From: Escherichia phage 4E10
Sequence record: OQ689735.1
Strand: one strand, 5' to 3'
DNA: 64,000 nt
Below the pieces are notes generated by a model. It worked only from the letters and a program-made list of their open reading frames with translations. It searched no databases and was not told the DNA's origin. Below, one piece after another: positions 24,817-37,164 of this stretch (position 1 is its first letter; each line of letters opens with the position of its first letter). The position numbers were made by a program, and so were the translations under genes.

Positions 24817-24825
24817 ATCACCTTC

Positions 24826-25011
24826 TTAAAGCGTATTCACATAAGCTATTAATTCGTTTTCTTTCTTATCAAACCGATCAGCAAATTCTTCTTGCTGATC
24901 GGGAGATAGCGGGCCATATTCATCATAAAAGGTGTTTGCTTCTGTATGCTCATCTAGAAGTTCATGGATAAGCTCAAACAATTTATCTTTTTGTTCTTTG
25001 CTTAGGCTCAC
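24826..25011 (-). CDS. Small acidic helical protein (small-paralog family)
   Basis: ORF track 61 aa, MSLSKEQKDKLFELIHELLDEH. Confidence 0.5.
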   Translation of the reverse strand: MSLSKEQKDKLFELIHELLDEHTEANTFYDEYGPLSPDQQEEFADRFDKKENELIAYVNTL

Positions 25012-25180
25012 AGTATGTCAATCCCCAAAAGTTTTAAAATGACTCGTTTCTGATTCATAACCGCTACGATTGAATGACCGTTGGGGTCTTTTTGACCTGA
25101 TCCAATTATAAATCCTTTTTGCGCAGAAAGTTCAATCAAAACATCAAGTTCACGTAATAATTGATATTTTAAATCATCAT

Positions 25181-25408
25181 TCATTTTGGTTTACCTTCTT
25201 TAACGAAATCAGGATAAGGATAAAATCCTGAATAAAATCCTTCACCTTTATGATTGATGCATCCTTTATTAGAACAATAGCACCAATAATCGAAATCACA
25301 AGCCATTTCATCGTTGCATAAAGCAAAAACAACCGGCCACTTACACTTTTCACAGTGGGCATTTTTAAGAATACTAGTTTGGCTCATAACCATGTAACCT
25401 TTAAGCAA
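25181..25408 (-). CDS. Cys-rich small protein (putative zinc binding)
   Basis: ORF track 75 aa; CEKCKW...CNDEMACDFDYWCYCSNKGC. Confidence 0.45.
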   Translation of the reverse strand: MLKGYMVMSQTSILKNAHCEKCKWPVVFALCNDEMACDFDYWCYCSNKGCINHKGEGFYSGFYPYPDFVKEGKPK

Positions 25409-25596
25409 TATTCTTCTACATGTTGTTTACGACCTTTCCTATCAATAAAGGTATATTCAACGAATGTTCCAATATAGTCTTTATCTACATCATGTGGACT
25501 ATTAATTGGGCATTTAGTACGGCAAATGCGTTCCCATTGACGAATAATTACTGCTTTGTTTTTAGGATCAAACGGATGCGGGTAATGTACTTTCAT
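25384..25596 (-). CDS. Hypothetical protein
   Basis: ORF track 70 aa. Confidence 0.45.
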   Translation of the reverse strand: MKVHYPHPFDPKNKAVIIRQWERICRTKCPINSPHDVDKDYIGTFVEYTFIDRKGRKQHVEEYCLKVTWL

Positions 25597-26047
25597 AATC
25601 CACCACTATTAAATCAATATCAGGAGTAAACATACCGATTAATTTAGAAACCTTATCCCAATCGCCGCCAGCAATACCACAACCTATGCGTGGAATGTAA
25701 ATTACCGGTTTAAACAAAAGGATTTCTGCCTGTAGATTTAATTCTATCATGCAGTTTACTAAAGCACCATAATCAAGATTAGGACCCGGTTCGTATTGCG
25801 TATACAAATTATAGCATATACCAAATCCCGTAGGATTATGTTTAAAAACAATAGACATATCGCCTAATTTATCACGAGAACCGTACTCGGTAGTGGTTTT
25901 ATCTATTTCTAAAATTTTGGGATAGGCTCTTGCTAATTGACCTGCTACGCCAGAGCCCATTGTGTGGAAGCAATTGCACCCGTGCGCAATAATATTACCT
26001 TGAAGAAATAGGGCGACAATATCGCCCTTGATATATTTTACAATCAT
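25568..26047 (-). CDS. Macro-domain (ADP-ribose binding/processing) protein
   Basis: GDIV...IAHGCNCFHTMGSGVAGQLARAYP and IYIPRIGCGIAGGDW resemble the two conserved macro-domain loops; 159 aa. Confidence 0.6.
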   Translation of the reverse strand: MIVKYIKGDIVALFLQGNIIAHGCNCFHTMGSGVAGQLARAYPKILEIDKTTTEYGSRDKLGDMSIVFKHNPTGFGICYNLYTQYEPGPNLDYGALVNCMIELNLQAEILLFKPVIYIPRIGCGIAGGDWDKVSKLIGMFTPDIDLIVVDYESTLPASV

Positions 26048-26385
26048 CTAGTACTCAATCCTCGATTATAAGAATCTACCAAACGGTCAACCATTGAATG
26101 ACAAGCGGCTTTATCTTTCTCCTCCGCAACTGAACATTCTAATGTATTCCACTTTTTAGCATATCGTTTTAATAATGTATCGTTTTTGTATCTGCTTGAT
26201 TTATCTCTTTCTCCGTCTTTATATGCATATATTAATTTCTGTGCAAATTCAGCTTGGCATGCTTTATTTTTCCCACAATAATCTGCCGCAGTGCGGTTTA
26301 CATACTCTCTAATTTCAGTATATGATGTATCTGCTAACGCAGAAAATGAAATTAATCCTATACATAAAACCAAAATTTTAGTCAT
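26044..26385 (-). CDS. Secreted small protein (signal peptide)
   Basis: N-terminus MTKILVLCIGLISFSALA then polar, Cys-containing domain; 113 aa. Confidence 0.5.
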   Translation of the reverse strand: MTKILVLCIGLISFSALADTSYTEIREYVNRTAADYCGKNKACQAEFAQKLIYAYKDGERDKSSRYKNDTLLKRYAKKWNTLECSVAEEKDKAACHSMVDRLVDSYNRGLSTR

Positions 26386-26923
26386 TTACTATTTCCAAAA
26401 GTTTATTATTTTTAAGGTAATTAGCCTTTTCTAGGACTTCAGAAGCATATTTAGAACCTGCTTTAACATTCCATCCCGAATTATAAGAGGATATCGCCTT
26501 TCTTATATCGCCCTTATGTATATTTAACCAATAAGAAAGTTCAATGTACGCCCAGGAAGCTGAATTGGACCGTTTATTCAACATTCTTTTTATTTCAGTA
26601 TCGGTCATATTATAACCAAGTTCCTTAACTCTCGCTCGCATTGTCGGCAAATAATTTTGGAACATTCCATAGGCATGATGCTTTGGTTTAGATTTTAAAT
26701 TAACTCCGGCAGAGCTTTCTTGCCATAAAATAGCAGCCATTATATGACCTAATCCGCTCTTGTGGATATTTTTGTGTGTTTTATATTTTCCATCCTTAGA
26801 AAATTGTTCCCCGAATTGATACGCGTAACGCATGTTATCGAGTTGGACATTACTGAAAGTATGCTCGGAGCTATGTGCCATCATTGAAATGGCCAATAGA
26901 CCAGCGAGTAGTGCTTTTCTCAT
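26378..26923 (-). CDS. Secreted lytic transglycosylase-like protein (SLT domain)
   Basis: Signal peptide MRKALLAGLLAISMMAHS; SLT-like motifs ES (WQESSAG), GMFQ and YNSG. Confidence 0.6.
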   Translation of the reverse strand: MRKALLAGLLAISMMAHSSEHTFSNVQLDNMRYAYQFGEQFSKDGKYKTHKNIHKSGLGHIMAAILWQESSAGVNLKSKPKHHAYGMFQNYLPTMRARVKELGYNMTDTEIKRMLNKRSNSASWAYIELSYWLNIHKGDIRKAISSYNSGWNVKAGSKYASEVLEKANYLKNNKLLEIVND

Positions 26924-26930
26924 GCTTACC

Positions 26931-27392
26931 TCATTGAGTTTTAATTACTGCTTTAGAAGCCTTTCCTGGTAAACGACGACTGTTGATAATTGCCATTCTA
27001 CATTGAAGTGACGGGTCTTTGAACTTCGCATTAGGTTTACAAACTGTAAATCCAAGCCAAAGATTTCCATCTGTGATTTCTAAACGTCCAGGACGATATT
27101 CAACCCCATCAATAAAATTCTCGTCAATGTCAGGACGCGGAGGCATACTCAGGAATTCATTAACTTCTAAAACATGGTCTTTTATTTTGTGGAATAATTC
27201 AAAAACATATGTCTCATCAATCTCCCGTTGAATTGCACGATCAAGAAGATGCTGAGAATATTTTAGATGAAACGATGAGACCCCTGCTGCTTTTGATGCC
27301 TCACGAATCTCATTGTTAATTTGACGAAACTCCGACTCAAAGTGACGACGAAGCTTATTTCGACGGATAAAAACTTCTGTATTGATAGTCAT
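26931..27392 (-). CDS. regB: Endoribonuclease RegB
   Basis: 153 aa, MTINTEVFIRRNKLRRHFESEFRQINNEIREA...; matches recalled T4 RegB; early promoter directly upstream. Confidence 0.93.
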   Translation of the reverse strand: MTINTEVFIRRNKLRRHFESEFRQINNEIREASKAAGVSSFHLKYSQHLLDRAIQREIDETYVFELFHKIKDHVLEVNEFLSMPPRPDIDENFIDGVEYRPGRLEITDGNLWLGFTVCKPNAKFKDPSLQCRMAIINSRRLPGKASKAVIKTQ

Positions 27393-27419
27393 GTTATTCT
27401 CCTCTTAACTGATAGAAAA

Positions 27420-27449
27420 ATTATACCACAGTCAAGAGGAAAAGTAAAC
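27420..27449 (-). promoter_or_regulatory. T4-type early promoter upstream of regB
   Basis: Minus strand GTTTAC, 18 nt, TGG-TATAAT. Confidence 0.6.
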
Positions 27450-27451
27450 AG

Positions 27452-27730
27452 TTATTCTTTAAATCTAATCAATTTATTCATAGACTTTGAAACTTCTGCA
27501 CGGACCTCATGTAAGTTTTTAAGCTGTTCAAGACGCTGCTCATAATAAGCAATTTCATCTTCTTCGAGACAGTCCTGTGAATCTTCTTTAAGATAGCGTG
27601 CATAGTCCTGGAAAGCGTTACGGATTACTTCCTGGAAATCATCAAGACTTTGAATTTTCTTAGGAGCAGCAGATACACGACGAGGGGCAGTATAATACTC
27701 ATAACCAAACCCTGCGCTTAATTGAGCCAT
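27452..27730 (-). CDS. Hypothetical small protein
   Basis: ORF track 27452..27772; ATG at 27730 ([13 protein letters not shown]...); TAATG overlap with upstream gene. Confidence 0.5.
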
Positions 27731-27996
27731 TAGTATTTTTCCTCTGGTTGGAACACTGCACGACAAGCCCACATACTGGCTTCTTTGAGTTTCGTTTTAG
27801 CAATAGTTAACTGATCGAGGCTTTCAGCATAATTCTTTGCGAATTCATAGTCTTCACAATTATCTAGTGCTTCCCAGAATTCGTCATATAAAGCGTCAAA
27901 GATAAGTCCTAAACGAACTTCAGCATCTTTGATAGCATTCACTTTACCGATTTTCTCTTCAGTATGTGGCTTATAACCCTTAATGTCTTCAATCAT
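27730..27996 (-). CDS. Hypothetical small protein; candidate Acb2-like nucleotide sponge by position only
   Basis: ORF track 27730..28032; ATG at 27996 with GAGGAAG site ([17 protein letters not shown]...). The Acb2 call is inferred from position relative to regB, not from sequence I can recall. Confidence 0.5.
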
Positions 27997-28210
27997 ATTT
28001 GACTTCCTCACCAGTACATAAATCGTATTCAACTAAACGAATAGGTTCATGAATGCCATATCCCTGAACAGAAATTTCTGTCGTAGGATAAATTCCACTA
28101 ATATCACCCATATTCCACGCTTCATTAAATTGCTGTTCGCCTGAATTACTAAACCATTCTGCGAAAGCATTTAGCACATCTTTAGAACCTTCAATAATTA
28201 TCTTTGCCAT
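27989..28210 (-). CDS. Hypothetical protein
   Basis: ORF track 73 aa. Confidence 0.5.
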   Translation of the reverse strand: MAKIIIEGSKDVLNAFAEWFSNSGEQQFNEAWNMGDISGIYPTTEISVQGYGIHEPIRLVEYDLCTGEEVKYD

Positions 28211-28572
28211 TACAGACTCTCAGTAAAGGTACGAGCAATAACGTCGCGCTGCTGTTCCGGAGTCAGAGAGTTAAAGCGAACTGCATAACCGGATACACGG
28301 ATGGTCAGCTGCGGATATTTTTCCGGATGCTTAACTGCATCTTCCAGAGTTTCACGACGCAGAACGTTAACGTTCAGGTGTTGACCACCTTCAATTTTAA
28401 CTGTAGGTTGTGGCTCAATTTCAATTTCACGGGCATGCAAACCATAGAAAATTTCTGGGTCTACAAAAGAGTCCTCTTTAAAGGTTTTAGAGACAATAAT
28501 TCGTGCTTGAATACCATCTTCAAAATAAATAGTACCTTTATGTGTGCCTTCAAGAATTTGATATGCTTTCAT
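28210..28572 (-). CDS. Autonomous glycyl-radical cofactor (GrcA/YfiD-like; T4 Y06I homolog)
   Basis: C-terminal [59 protein letters not shown] is essentially the E. coli GrcA glycyl-radical domain. Confidence 0.85.
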
Positions 28573-28579
28573 ATAAACC

Positions 28580-28906
28580 TCAATTAGAAAATAAATTTAT
28601 CCAAGATTGTTCTTTAATTAAAAATGGCTCAGAATCATATGCCATTAAACTTTGCGTAATTAATCCTTTAAAAGGTCCATCAATAAATTCCATGGTAAAA
28701 TATGGAATTTTATTCATTAGCCGTGCATTAGGAGCAGTGCACAAAACTCTGCATCCTTTGAATACGCCTTTTTGTAATTTGTATTGCTTGGGATAAAATT
28801 CGCTCAAAATGTTATTATTTGCCAAAATTTCAAAATGATTTACCAATTTATTTTTAATAGTTTTTGGCGAAAAATAAAGATATTCGAAAAGCTGTGTATC
28901 TGTCAT
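28580..28906 (-). CDS. Hypothetical protein
   Basis: ORF track 28580..28960; start trimmed to [12 protein letters not shown]. Confidence 0.45.
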
Positions 28907-36143: not shown

Positions 36144-36219
36144 TGGTCGAGGCAGTAGGGATCGAACCTACGACCTAGGACTTAGAAGGTCCTTGCTCTT
36201 CCTTCTGAGCTATGCCCCG
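36144..36219 (-). tRNA. tRNA-Arg (anticodon TCT)
   Basis: Hand-folded cloverleaf: 7-bp acceptor, D-stem GCTC/GAGC, anticodon stem AGGAC/GTCCT, loop CTTCTAA, T-loop TTCGATC, CCA encoded. Confidence 0.8.
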
Positions 36220-36223
36220 TAAT

Positions 36224-36299
36224 TGGGGTGACCGATGGGAGTCGAACCCATGACTACGAGAATCACAATCTCGAGTTCTACCAACTGAACTACGGCCAC
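36224..36299 (-). tRNA. tRNA-His (anticodon GTG); no encoded G-1
   Basis: Perfect D, anticodon (CGAGA/TCTCG) and T stems; loop TTGTGAT; discriminator C73; residue -1 is U rather than G. Confidence 0.65.
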
Positions 36300-36412
36300 A
36301 TTAATACCTACTCCAACAATCAAGATGTCTTCACACGAAATTAAGAGAAGAGTGATCAGTTCAACCCTATAATCGCGTCAAGTAGATATTAATGTGACAG
36401 TTGTCACAAATT

Positions 36413-36487
36413 TGGCGGACGTGATAGGATTCGAACCTATAACCAATCGCTTAACAGGCGATCGCTCTGCCATTGAGCTACACATCC
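36413..36487 (-). tRNA. tRNA-Asn (anticodon GTT)
   Basis: Clean cloverleaf: anticodon stem ATCGC/GCGAT, loop CTGTTAA, T-loop TTCGAAT, discriminator G, CCA encoded. Confidence 0.75.
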
Positions 36488-36491
36488 AAAT

Positions 36492-36578
36492 TGGTGGGGA
36501 GTGATGGAGTCGAACCACCCGAGTCGCAATGACAATGAATTTACAGTCCACACCGCTACCTCTACGGGATAACTCCCC
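36492..36578 (-). tRNA. tRNA-Tyr (anticodon GTA), long variable arm
   Basis: 87 nt; acceptor GGGGAGT/ACTCCCC; loop CTGTAAA; anticodon stem has two G-U pairs; variable-arm stem GTC/GAC. Confidence 0.6.
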
Positions 36579-36591
36579 TTAATTCTTAATT

Positions 36592-36666
36592 TGGTGGCCC
36601 TGGGTGGAATTGAACCACCATCTGGCGATTATGAGTCGCTTGCTTGAACCTTCCAGCTACAGGGCC
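36592..36666 (-). tRNA. tRNA with CAT anticodon (Ile-lysidine type by T4 analogy, or elongator Met)
   Basis: Acceptor GGCCCTG/CAGGGCC, loop CTCATAA, T-arm GGTGG-TTCAATT-CCACC; sits where T4 has tRNA-Ile. Confidence 0.7.
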
Positions 36667-36667
36667 T

Positions 36668-36743
36668 TGGTGCTGATTGACGGAATCGAACCGCCGACCT
36701 TCTCATTACAAGTGAGTTGCTCTACCTACTGAGCTAAATCAGC
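36668..36743 (-). tRNA. tRNA-Thr (anticodon TGT)
   Basis: Cloverleaf with loop CTTGTAA, T-loop TTCGATT, CCA encoded. Confidence 0.8.
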
Positions 36744-36748
36744 AAAAC

Positions 36749-36838
36749 TGGCGGAGGCGATAGGATTTGAACCTATGAGTCGCCGGAGCGACTGCCGGTT
36801 TTCAAGACCGGTGCATTAAACCACTCTGCCACGCCTCC
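36749..36838 (-). tRNA. tRNA-Ser (anticodon TGA), long variable arm
   Basis: 90 nt, GGAGGCGTGGCAGAGTGG...CCGGT-CTTGAAA-ACCGG; matches recalled T4 tRNA-Ser. Confidence 0.85.
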
Positions 36839-36840
36839 AG

Positions 36841-36914
36841 TCTCCATACAAGGATTTGAACCTTGGACCTCCTGATCCCAAATCAGGCGCTCTACCAAAC
36901 TGAGCTACACGGAG
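36841..36914 (-). tRNA. tRNA-Pro (anticodon TGG); 3' CCA not encoded
   Basis: Loop TTTGGGA; acceptor CTCCGTG/TATGGAG; only 2 nt separate it from tRNA-Ser, consistent with the known T4 Pro-Ser dimeric precursor. Confidence 0.8.
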
Positions 36915-36924
36915 TAAATTAAAT

Positions 36925-36998
<74 letters not shown>

Positions 36999-37003
36999 AA
37001 ATT

Positions 37004-37090
37004 TGGTGCGAGAAGTGGGACTCGAACCCACAAGGAAATCATTCCGCAGCATTTTAAGTGCTGTGCCTTTACCAATTTGACCATTCTCGC
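37004..37090 (-). tRNA. tRNA-Leu (anticodon TAA), long variable arm
   Basis: GCGAGAATGGTCAAATTGGTAAAGGCACAGCACTTAAAATGCTG...; matches recalled T4 tRNA-Leu. Confidence 0.85.
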
Positions 37091-37091
37091 G

Positions 37092-37164
37092 CTGGGAATA
37101 AAGGACTCGAACCTTTGCATCCTGGAATCAAAATCCAGTGCCTTACCAACTTGGCTAATTCCCA
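37092..37164 (-). tRNA. tRNA-Gln (anticodon TTG); 3' CCA not encoded
   Basis: Loop TTTTGAT with stem CTGGA/TCCAG; U1-A72; abuts tRNA-Leu with a 1-nt spacer (Gln-Leu dimeric precursor as in T4). Confidence 0.8.

What the first reader, a model, noticed from the sequence alone, without database searches (positions are those of the whole stretch)
25568..26047. Early-expressed macro-domain protein
The 159-aa protein carries both conserved macro-domain loops (GDIV...HGCNC...MGSGVAGQL and IPRIGCGIAGGDW). Macro domains bind or hydrolyse ADP-ribose adducts, so a phage copy could reverse host ADP-ribosylation-based immunity or regulate the phage's own ADP-ribosyltransferases. It sits in the tk-regB accessory stretch.
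Basis: partly seen in the sequence, partly recalled or inferred. Interest (0 to 1): 0.6.

Follow-up and report, generated by a model that had tools for sequence, protein, structure and literature searches.

The report
Phage Tk.4/AdfM anti-DarT2 macrodomain gene

Summary
The 159-aa ORF at 25568..26047 (-) is real, and every quoted motif is present. It passes the Pfam Macro threshold. The AlphaFold2 model is confident (pLDDT 93.8), and its closest structures are all ALC1/TARG1-like macrodomains: Bt_1257, DarG, Poa1p and TARG1.

The window is a Tequatrovirus. The gene is the syntenic ortholog of T4 tk.4, lying between vs and tk.3 in the tk-regB stretch. A 2025 preprint found T4 tk.4 to be the only gene needed against DarTG2 and named it AdfM. 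T4 tk.4 RNA is classed as early. So the observation and the main interpretation hold, and the function is already known by orthology.

Three points go beyond the literature I read:
- **Active site:** the catalytic lysine of DarG and TARG1 is an invariant glutamine here (Q84). This matches Streptomyces SCO6735, a proven thymidine-ADP-ribose hydrolase whose Q85A mutant is dead. PhiKZ "AdfM" is instead a true DarG-type lysine enzyme.
- **Allele:** this copy is only 57% identical to T4 Tk.4 inside 94-99% identical flanks, but 92.5% identical to Dhakavirus JS98 Tk.4. That indicates a cassette exchange between genera.
- **Hairpin:** a GC-rich hairpin in the 5' coding end is conserved across genera.

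Activity of this allele is untested.

The parts
25568..26047 (-). tk.4 / adfM coding sequence: a 159-aa single macrodomain protein
25970..25984 (-). H22-G-C-N25-C motif. N25 is the conserved macrodomain Asn (SCO6735 N27, DarG N22). H22 aligns with SCO6735 H24 and Poa1p H23.
   Evidence: H22, G23, N25 and C26 are present in 119/121 family members; the other 2 have a gap. Alignment A2. N27S in SCO6735 and N22A in DarG cripple activity.
25937..25960 (-). M30-G-S-G-V-A-G-Q37, the first ADP-ribose-binding loop (GxG loop)
   Evidence: Aligns with TaqDarG M27..Q34, which includes the ADPr contacts V31 and Q34. G33 is invariant.
25796..25810 (-). N80-L-Y-T-Q84 strand. Q84 occupies the position of the catalytic Lys of DarG (K80) and TARG1 (K84), and of the essential Gln85 of SCO6735.
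   Evidence: Profile alignment to TARG1 and Bt_1257. Multiple alignment A2. N80, Y82 and Q84 are invariant in 121/121 sequences. SCO6735 Q85A is inactive.
25658..25693 (-). P119-R-I-G-C-G-I-A-G-G-D-W130, the second (diphosphate-binding) loop
   Evidence: Near-identical to PRIGCGLAGGxW of Bt_1257 and SCO6735. G122 and G124 align with SCO6735 G126/G128 and DarG G117/G119.
26044..26047 (-). ATGA overlap of the vs stop codon with the tk.4 start codon. GAGGA lies 12 nt upstream. The layout suggests translational coupling within the regB-vs.1-vs-tk.4-tk.3 operon.
   Evidence: ORF coordinates. Sequence.
27420..27448 (-). Early-promoter-like site (TTTACT, 17 nt, TG-TATAAT) upstream of regB. It is the likely source of the transcript that carries tk.4.
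   Evidence: Promoter scan. Promoter-like sites are not enriched in the region (21 found, 25.7 expected), so the argument rests on position. The segment is 100% identical to T4. RegB is an early product (PMC2988021) and T4 tk.4 RNA is early.
26010..26028 (-). Conserved 8-bp GC-rich hairpin (AGGGCGAUAUUGUCGCCCU, about -13 kcal/mol) starting 20 nt after the AUG and followed by a U-rich tract. Its role is unknown. It marks one edge of the allele cassette.
   Evidence: Terminator-like scan. Stem nucleotides are identical in six phages of three genera, while neighbouring synonymous sites vary.

Best explanation
The gene is the ortholog of phage T4 tk.4 (AdfM). It encodes a stand-alone 159-aa macrodomain of the ALC1/TARG1-like class.

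**Expression.** It is made early in infection from the regB-vs.1-vs-tk.4-tk.3 transcript.

**Proposed function.** It acts as an orphan 'antitoxin'. When the host DarT2 toxin ADP-ribosylates thymidines in single-stranded phage DNA, the macrodomain binds the ADP-ribose through N25 and the two glycine-rich loops. It then hydrolyses the thymine-N3-ribose bond and releases ADP-ribose, so replication can continue.

**Proposed chemistry.** I infer it is of the SCO6735 type. An invariant glutamine (Q84), held in place by N25, positions the distal ribose for water-mediated cleavage. This differs from the lysine nucleophile of DarG and TARG1.

**Shown versus inferred.**
- Shown here: the fold, the class, the orthology and the residue mapping.
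- Shown by others: the T4 knockout phenotype and the biochemistry of SCO6735.
- Inferred: that this 57%-identical allele has the same activity and mechanism.
For: - **Orthology.** Same position between vs and tk.3. Flanking proteins are 94-99% identical to T4, and Tk.4 is 57% identical over its full length.
- **Function of the ortholog.** T4 tk.4 was the single HIDEN-SEQ hit on a DarTG2 host, and a clean knockout became sensitive. T2 and T4 resist DarTG2 independently of AdfA and AdfN.
- **Mechanism analog.** SCO6735 and Bt_1257 carry Gln at the DarG K80 position. SCO6735 removes DarT-made dT-ADPr and rescues DarT toxicity. Its Q85A mutant is inactive and N27S nearly so.
- **Residue mapping.** Q84, N25, H22, G122 and G124 here align with SCO6735 Q85, N27, H24, G126 and G128. 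Q84 is invariant in 121/121 family members.
- **ADPr contacts.** Of the 11 ADPr-contact positions listed for TaqDarG, 6 carry the same residue here: N25, V34, Q37, T83, G122 and G124.
- **Selection and timing.** dN/dS is 0.03-0.075. T4 tk.4 RNA is early.
Against: - No experiment exists on this allele. It is only 57% identical to the tested T4 protein.
- The T4 result is genetic and comes from a preprint. Enzymatic removal of ADP-ribose by Tk.4 is the authors' inference.
- The protein lacks the extended 'mobile loop' and the lysines (K34, K89, K93) that SCO6735 uses to hold DNA.
- It scores far below the DarG equivalog cut-off: 26 bits against 250.
- I could not inspect the active-site geometry of the model, because no coordinates were available.
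- A comparative study argued that most phage macrodomains target small ADP-ribose derivatives (PMC9503650).
Confidence: 0.72

Rival explanations
1. The protein processes small ADP-ribose derivatives rather than modified DNA. Candidates are ADP-ribose-1''-phosphate (the historical 'A1pp phosphatase' annotation, Poa1p-like), O-acetyl-ADP-ribose, and NAD-derived immune signals or toxins.
For: - T4 Tk.4 is annotated 'phosphatase; contains A1pp phosphatase motif', and PHROG 335 is labelled 'phosphatase'.
- H22 aligns with Poa1p H23, a residue chosen for mutagenesis (6lfs).
Against: - The only phenotype reported for the ortholog is specific to DarTG2, a DNA-modifying system.
- The closest biochemically studied Gln-type relative, SCO6735, is a DNA and protein de-ADP-ribosylase.
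- I found no source of ADP-ribose-1''-phosphate during T4 infection.
- The two activities are not mutually exclusive.
Confidence: 0.1
2. It neutralises DarT2 mainly without catalysis, either by binding and inhibiting the toxin or by shielding its product. In that case allele divergence would reflect adaptation to different DarT2 variants.
For: - Catalytically dead SCO6735 Q85A still inhibits DarT strongly, more so than DarG K80A or TARG1 K84A.
- The allele here was swapped as a cassette and is 43% different from T4 Tk.4. A product-directed enzyme would not obviously need that.
Against: - All ADP-ribose-binding and catalytic-site positions are invariant across 121 homologs, which points to conserved enzymatic function.
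- The DarG macrodomain alone, as K80A, does not inhibit DarT.
- The divergence between alleles is of the same order as divergence between genera, and is explained by horizontal exchange with a Dhakavirus-type allele.
Confidence: 0.08
3. It erases or tunes modifications written by the phage's own ADP-ribosyltransferases (Alt, ModA, ModB) on host proteins or RNA.
For: - T4-like phages encode Alt, ModA and ModB (my own knowledge; Alt and ModA are also mentioned).
- The macrodomain is expressed early, as they are.
- SCO6735 also acts on a protein substrate, automodified PARP1.
Against: - Alt, ModA and ModB are arginine-specific (my own knowledge). ALC1/TARG1-like macrodomains are characterised on Asp/Glu- and thymidine-linked ADPr.
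- In the T4 screen, tk.4 insertions were depleted specifically in the presence of DarTG2.
- There is no genomic linkage with alt or mod genes in this stretch.
Confidence: 0.04

Closest known systems
Phage T4 Tk.4 = AdfM (anti-DarT factor Macrodomain; bioRxiv 10.1101/2025.11.20.689424)
   Same: Syntenic ortholog lying between vs and tk.3, with an ATGA overlap with vs. Same length class (159 versus 155 aa). All 14 family-invariant residues are shared, including H22, N25, D49, N80, Y82, Q84, G122, G124 and W130.
   Different: Only 57% amino-acid identity, in a sharply bounded island (45-78% nucleotide identity) inside 93-100% identical flanks. The second loop here is the family consensus PRIGCGIAGGDW, whereas T4 has PRIGAGIGKGNW. 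This allele has not been tested.
Streptomyces coelicolor SCO6735 (PDB 5E3B) and Bacteroides Bt_1257 (PDB 2FG1/2AFC): Gln-type ALC1-like macrodomains
   Different: About 26-27% identity. The phage protein lacks the mobile loop that is 5-6 residues longer, with K89/K93, and has S32 where SCO6735 has K34. D49 and Y82 are invariant only in the phage family.
DarG antitoxin macrodomain (TaqDarG 5M31/5M3E, MtbDarG 5M3I)
   Different: Catalytic K80 is Gln here. There is no C-terminal DarT-binding domain and no adjacent darT. The protein scores 26 bits on the NCBIfam DarG equivalog, whose cut-off is 250.
PhiKZ gp104, also named AdfM (Cell Rep 2026, PMC13309987)
   Same: A stand-alone phage macrodomain that counters DarTG2. 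In vitro removal of DarT2-made ADP-ribose from DNA has been shown. It falls in the same broad PHROG 335.
   Different: gp104 is a genuine DarG-type protein. It has an FPTK lysine motif, scores 133-138 bits on DarG models and matches only DarG entries in the PDB. Pairwise similarity to the window protein is marginal. The shared name therefore covers two different subfamilies of the macrodomain class.
Human TARG1/OARD1 and yeast Poa1p
   Same: Top Foldseek matches. Profile E-values are 8.5e-17 and 3.3e-14. The His at the H22 position is shared.
   Different: The TARG1 catalytic dyad K84/D125 aligns with Q84 and A126 here. Poa1p is a small-molecule phosphatase with a long insertion.

Membership tests
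Macro domain (Pfam PF01661) | Score above the Pfam gathering threshold | tested here: met
   31.5 bits against a cut-off of 22. E = 1.9e-7. Residues 22-136 cover profile positions 2-117 of 118.
Macro domain (Pfam PF01661) | Three-layer alpha/beta/alpha macro fold | tested here: met
ALC1/TARG1-like macrodomain class | Closest structural and sequence neighbours are class members, clearly separated from the MacroD, PARG and viral classes | tested here: met
T4 Tk.4 / AdfM orthologous group | Conserved genomic position (vs - tk.4 - tk.3 in the regB-tk operon) and full-length homology | tested here: met
   The same order is seen in Dhakavirus and Mosigvirus phages.
T4 Tk.4 / AdfM orthologous group | Required for phage growth on DarTG2-expressing hosts | not testable with these tools
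   Reported only for T4. It needs a knockout or complementation with this allele.
SCO6735/Bt_1257 Gln-type subclass | Gln at the position of DarG K80/TARG1 K84, supported by the conserved Asn (SCO6735 N27) | tested here: met
   Q84 and N25 align with Q85 and N27. Q84 is invariant in 121/121 sequences; N25 is present in 119/121, the other 2 having a gap.
SCO6735/Bt_1257 Gln-type subclass | Extended mobile loop (about 5 residues longer) carrying DNA-binding lysines K89/K93, plus K34 | tested here: not met
   A six-residue gap opposite the Bt_1257 loop. S32 aligns with K34. I therefore do not file the protein as a member of this subclass, only as sharing its catalytic-site type.
DarG antitoxin (NCBIfam NF048014, PADLOC DarG) | Equivalog score cut-off | tested here: not met
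   26 bits against a cut-off of 250. PADLOC DarG gives 26 bits, against 133 for PhiKZ gp104.
DarG antitoxin (NCBIfam NF048014, PADLOC DarG) | Catalytic lysine (K80) | tested here: not met
   Gln84 sits in that column. K80 is defined as catalytic in PMC5179494.
DarG antitoxin (NCBIfam NF048014, PADLOC DarG) | C-terminal DarT-binding domain and an adjacent darT gene | tested here: not met
   The protein is a 159-aa single domain that matches only positions 2-143 of the DarG models of about 330 positions. Its neighbours are vs and tk.3.
Poa1p-type ADP-ribose-1''-phosphate phosphatase | Phosphatase activity on Appr1p, and the residues probed in Poa1p (H23, S30, F152) | tested here: inconclusive
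   H22 aligns with H23. By my own reading of those alignments, S30 corresponds to T29, and F152 is not conserved (A126). Activity cannot be tested here.

The most novel reading that the evidence does not exclude
T-even phages carry a glutamine-type anti-DarT2 macrodomain that works by a mechanism different from that of DarG, and was recruited independently of the lysine-type PhiKZ AdfM. The Dhakavirus-derived allele in this phage lineage would differ functionally from the T4 allele, for example in DarT2-variant coverage through direct toxin inhibition, or in the ADP-ribose linkage it cleaves (RNA, protein or other bases). Cassette swapping at tk.4 would then be part of an arms race rather than neutral mosaicism.
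Probability: 0.12. Interest if true: 0.5.

Novelty: already known. Interest (0 to 1): 0.27.

Why it matters
DarTG systems stop phages by ADP-ribosylating their DNA, and knowing which phage genes undo this helps predict host range. This gene belongs to a family present in about 5% of deposited phage genomes (2758 of 50,697 records).

The T4 member has just been tied to DarTG2 resistance, so the annotation 'phosphatase/hypothetical' on hundreds of T4-like genomes can be updated.

The useful increments from this analysis are modest:
- The T-even AdfM is a Gln-type enzyme (SCO6735-like), not a Lys-type (DarG-like). This predicts which mutations kill it (Q84, N25).
- The name AdfM currently covers two different subfamilies of the macrodomain class.
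- The gene moves between phage genera as a precisely bounded cassette.

Tried and rejected
- **Direct comparison with PhiKZ AdfM.** BLASTP gave only marginal local matches. hhalign (95% probability) placed the catalytic column one residue out of register, at low confidence. I relied instead on the MAFFT alignment with DarG, TARG1, SCO6735 and Bt_1257 and on the HMMER profile alignments.
- **PHROG assignment to separate the two 'AdfM' types.** Both fall in the broad PHROG 335, so this does not discriminate. DarG HMM scores do.
- **Genomic context of a bacterial homolog (Pelagimonas, P0094).** It is a stand-alone gene with no darT or defence neighbours, so it says nothing about origin.
- **Promoter scan.** Sigma-70-like sites are not enriched in the region (21 found, 25.7 expected). 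The early-expression argument therefore rests on operon position, identity to T4 and published T4 omics, not on the scan.
- **Active-site geometry.** Contacts such as Q84-N25 or a possible D49-Y82 pair could not be measured.
- **Rfam.** Nothing was found in or near the gene; the only matches are tRNAs.
- **Pseudogene or spurious ORF.** Rejected: the ORF is intact, dN/dS is at most 0.075 and all motifs are conserved.

Full report
**1. Observation**

The minus strand carries an ATG-initiated ORF of 159 aa at 25568..26047. The protein passes the curated Pfam threshold for Macro (PF01661: 31.5 bits against 22, E = 1.9e-7, covering 116 of 118 profile positions). It matches PHROG 335 at E = 2e-69.

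Homologs are abundant. A protein search returned 773 at E <= 1e-5. tblastn finds the family in 2758 of 50,697 phage records. Nei-Gojobori dN/dS is 0.034 against phage teqdroes and 0.075 against JS98, so the gene is under strong purifying selection.

**2. Where it is**

The window is a Tequatrovirus. The 4-kb stretch around the gene is 97-99.9% identical to many T4-like phages. The neighbours are thymidine kinase (PF00265, 24235..24816) and RegB (PF10715, 26931..27392), both on the same strand.

Against the T4 reference, the gene lies exactly where tk.4 lies, between vs and tk.3. JS98 annotates its 92.5%-identical copy as tk.4. The tk.4 start codon overlaps the vs stop codon (ATGA), with GAGGA 12 nt upstream. 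regB, vs.1, vs, tk.4 and tk.3 are contiguous or overlapping.

The only strong early-type promoter match on this strand just upstream is TTTACT-17-TGnTATAAT at 27448..27420, in front of regB. Promoter-like sites are not enriched overall in the region, so this argument is positional. For T4, a time-resolved omics study classifies tk.4 RNA as early and the protein as middle (PMC9697503 supplement). RegB is an early product (PMC2988021). 'Early-expressed' is therefore reasonable.

**3. What the protein is**

An AlphaFold2 model built on an 88-sequence alignment is confident (mean pLDDT 93.8, pTM 0.89).
- Foldseek against the PDB gives TARG1, Poa1p, Bt_1257, DarG (Thermus and Mycobacterium) and SCO6735 as top matches.
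- A profile search of PDB sequences returns the same set.

The protein is thus a stand-alone macrodomain of the ALC1/TARG1-like class.

**4. What is already known**

A November 2025 preprint (bioRxiv 10.1101/2025.11.20.689424) screened a T4 transposon library on a DarTG2-expressing host. It found tk.4 as the single significant hit and showed that a clean tk.4 knockout is sensitised to DarTG2. The authors noted similarity to the DarG macrodomain and named the gene adfM. Removal of ADP-ribose from DNA was proposed, not shown.

Earlier work had shown that T2 and T4 resist DarTG2 independently of AdfA and AdfN, and predicted a further factor (PMC11825919).

**5. Active-site analysis**

In TARG1 the nucleophile is K84, assisted by D125. 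In DarG the equivalent K80 is essential (PMC5179494).

In the profile alignment and in a multiple alignment with T4 Tk.4, Bt_1257, SCO6735, TARG1, two DarGs and PhiKZ gp104, that column is Gln in the window protein (Q84). It is also Gln in T4 Tk.4, Bt_1257 and SCO6735. It is Lys in TARG1, both DarGs and PhiKZ gp104. TARG1 D125 aligns with Ala126.

This is not loss of function. SCO6735 lacks both TARG1 residues, yet it removes DarT-made thymidine-linked ADP-ribose from DNA faster than DarG or TARG1. It also rescues DarT toxicity. Its Q85A mutant is inactive and N27S nearly so (PMC9411070).

The window residues Q84, N25, H22, G122 and G124 align with SCO6735 Q85, N27, H24, G126 and G128. The second loop, PRIGCGIAGGDW, is nearly identical to PRIGCGLAGGxW in SCO6735 and Bt_1257. 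Across the window protein and the 120 best homologs, D49, N80, Y82 and Q84 are invariant. H22, G23, N25 and C26 are present in all but two gapped sequences.

Of the 11 ADP-ribose contact positions listed for TaqDarG, six carry the same residue here: N25, V34, Q37, T83, G122 and G124.

There are differences from SCO6735 and Bt_1257:
- The 5-6-residue extension of the 'mobile loop', with K89 and K93, is absent.
- K34 is Ser32 here.
- D49 and Y82 are invariant only in the phage family, and their role is unknown.

I therefore describe the protein as having an SCO6735-type (Gln) catalytic centre, but not as a member of that bacterial subclass.

**6. Two different proteins are called AdfM**

A 2026 Cell Reports paper named PhiKZ gp104 AdfM. 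It showed in vitro removal of DarT2-made ADP-ribose, which was reduced by N23A (PMC13309987).

gp104 matches only DarG entries in the PDB (E = 9e-25) and has the DarG-like FPTK(D/K)xW motif. It scores 133-138 bits on the PADLOC and NCBIfam DarG models. The window protein scores 26 bits, T4 Tk.4 30-36 bits and SCO6735 34.5 bits.

So PhiKZ AdfM is a Lys-type DarG relative, while T-even AdfM is a Gln-type protein about as distant from DarG as SCO6735 is. PHROG 335 lumps them together. Their difference in catalytic type and in DarG-model score suggests that they were recruited separately; I did not test this with a phylogeny.

**7. The allele in this window**

The protein is only 57% identical to T4 Tk.4. 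Nucleotide identity to T4 falls to 45-78% exactly between 25563 and 26024, and is 93-100% on both sides. The comparison with flanking genes shows the discordance:

| Compared with | Vs.1 | Vs | Tk.4 | Tk.3 | Tk |
|---|---|---|---|---|---|
| T4 | 98.9% | 99.1% | 57.4% | 94.3% | 99.0% |
| Dhakavirus JS98 | 68.5% | 46.9% | 92.5% | 72.9% | 70.9% |

T4's own allele resembles the Mosigvirus Bas47 allele at about the background level (84.5% against roughly 82% for Vs.1 and Tk). The simplest reading is that a Dhakavirus-type tk.4 cassette replaced the resident allele in this Tequatrovirus lineage. dS of 0.6 against JS98 means that either the event is not recent or the donor was not JS98 itself.

The window-type allele is common: about 312 phage records at 90% identity or more. 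The T4 type has 224 such records. The window allele carries the family-consensus second loop, whereas T4's is somewhat atypical. I see no sign that it is degenerate.

**8. Mechanism and rivals**

Most likely (about 0.7), the protein is made early and hydrolyses DarT2-made thymidine-ADP-ribose on single-stranded phage DNA. It would use the N25/Q84 constellation in a water-mediated reaction like that proposed for SCO6735.

The rivals are:
- **Small ADP-ribose derivatives (about 0.1).** This follows the old 'A1pp phosphatase' label and the argument of PMC9503650.
- **Non-catalytic inhibition of DarT2 (about 0.08).** It is suggested by the inhibition seen with SCO6735 Q85A.
- **Erasing marks from the phage's own transferases (about 0.04).**

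None of these can be excluded computationally. The genetic specificity of the T4 phenotype and the strict conservation of the catalytic pocket favour the main model.

**9. Verdict**

The gene is an already known kind of phage counter-defence gene, deposited hundreds of times and functionally assigned through its T4 ortholog. The points added here are the Gln-type active site, the two distinct 'AdfM' subfamilies, the inter-genus cassette exchange and the conserved 5' hairpin. They are of specialist interest only, and interest is scored low to moderate.

Noticed in passing
window 26010..26028 (- strand), inside the 5' end of tk.4: A perfect 8-bp GC-rich hairpin (AGGGCGAUAUUGUCGCCCU, about -13 kcal/mol) starts 20 nt after the AUG and is followed by a U-rich tract. 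Its stem nucleotides, including all synonymous third positions, are identical in T4, JS98, NC-G, MX01 and Bas47, although these alleles are 55-57% diverged in protein and neighbouring codons vary synonymously. It lies at the edge of the allele-divergence island. The role is unknown; it could affect mRNA stability or attenuation, or serve as a recombination junction.
   Followed up: partly
window 25563..26024, compared with flanks 25383..25562 and 26025..28653: tk.4 is a sharply bounded island of 45-78% nucleotide identity to T4 inside 93-100% identical flanks. The protein is 92.5% identical to Dhakavirus JS98 Tk.4, whose neighbouring genes are only 47-73% identical. This indicates a cassette exchange between genera.
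   Followed up: yes
PhiKZ gp104 (sequence from PMC13309987) compared with window 25568..26047: Two papers use the name AdfM for proteins of different macrodomain subfamilies. PhiKZ gp104 is DarG-type, with a catalytic Lys and 133-138 bits on DarG models. T4 Tk.4 and the window protein are Gln-type and score 26-36 bits.
   Followed up: yes
window 25741..25766 (- strand), inside tk.4: A MotA-box-like middle-promoter match (TGCTTTAGTAAACTGCATGATAGAAT) lies within the tk.4 coding sequence and could drive tk.3-tk. The pattern is enriched in the window (15 matches, 2.3 expected), mostly on the transcribed strand.
   Followed up: no
window 24817..25383 (- strand ORFs 24826..25011, 25008..25184, 25181..25408): The interval between tk and tk.3 is not collinear with T4 tk.1/tk.2; only 176 nt align, at 67%. 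It holds three small ORFs: a DUF7438 protein, a 58-aa ORF with no family, and a 75-aa 'Phage zinc binding domain' protein.
   Followed up: partly
Tk.4 residues D49 and Y82 (window 25901..25903 and 25802..25804): D49 and Y82 are invariant in 121/121 members of the phage family. In Bt_1257, SCO6735, DarG and PhiKZ gp104, the D49 column is Tyr. The Y82 column holds Ile in Bt_1257, SCO6735 and TARG1, and Phe in DarG and PhiKZ gp104. This may be a swapped interacting pair or a family-specific catalytic feature. I could not check it without model coordinates.
   Followed up: partly
window 36144..37164 (- strand): A cluster of 11 tRNA genes: Arg, His, Asn, Tyr, Met(CAT), Thr, Ser, Pro, Gly, Leu and Gln. 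From memory, T4 has 8, so His, Asn and Tyr would be extra in this lineage.
   Followed up: no
window 26378..26923 (- strand), vs.1: Vs.1, two genes upstream of tk.4, has a weak but above-threshold SLT lytic-transglycosylase domain match (23.8 bits against 21.3) and a hydrophobic N-terminus, although T4 annotates it as hypothetical.
   Followed up: no
window 26044..26385 (- strand), vs: The gene immediately upstream, translationally overlapping tk.4, is vs. The same HIDEN-SEQ preprint reports vs as the most depleted T4 gene in minimal medium. Two conditionally essential genes therefore sit back to back.
   Followed up: no
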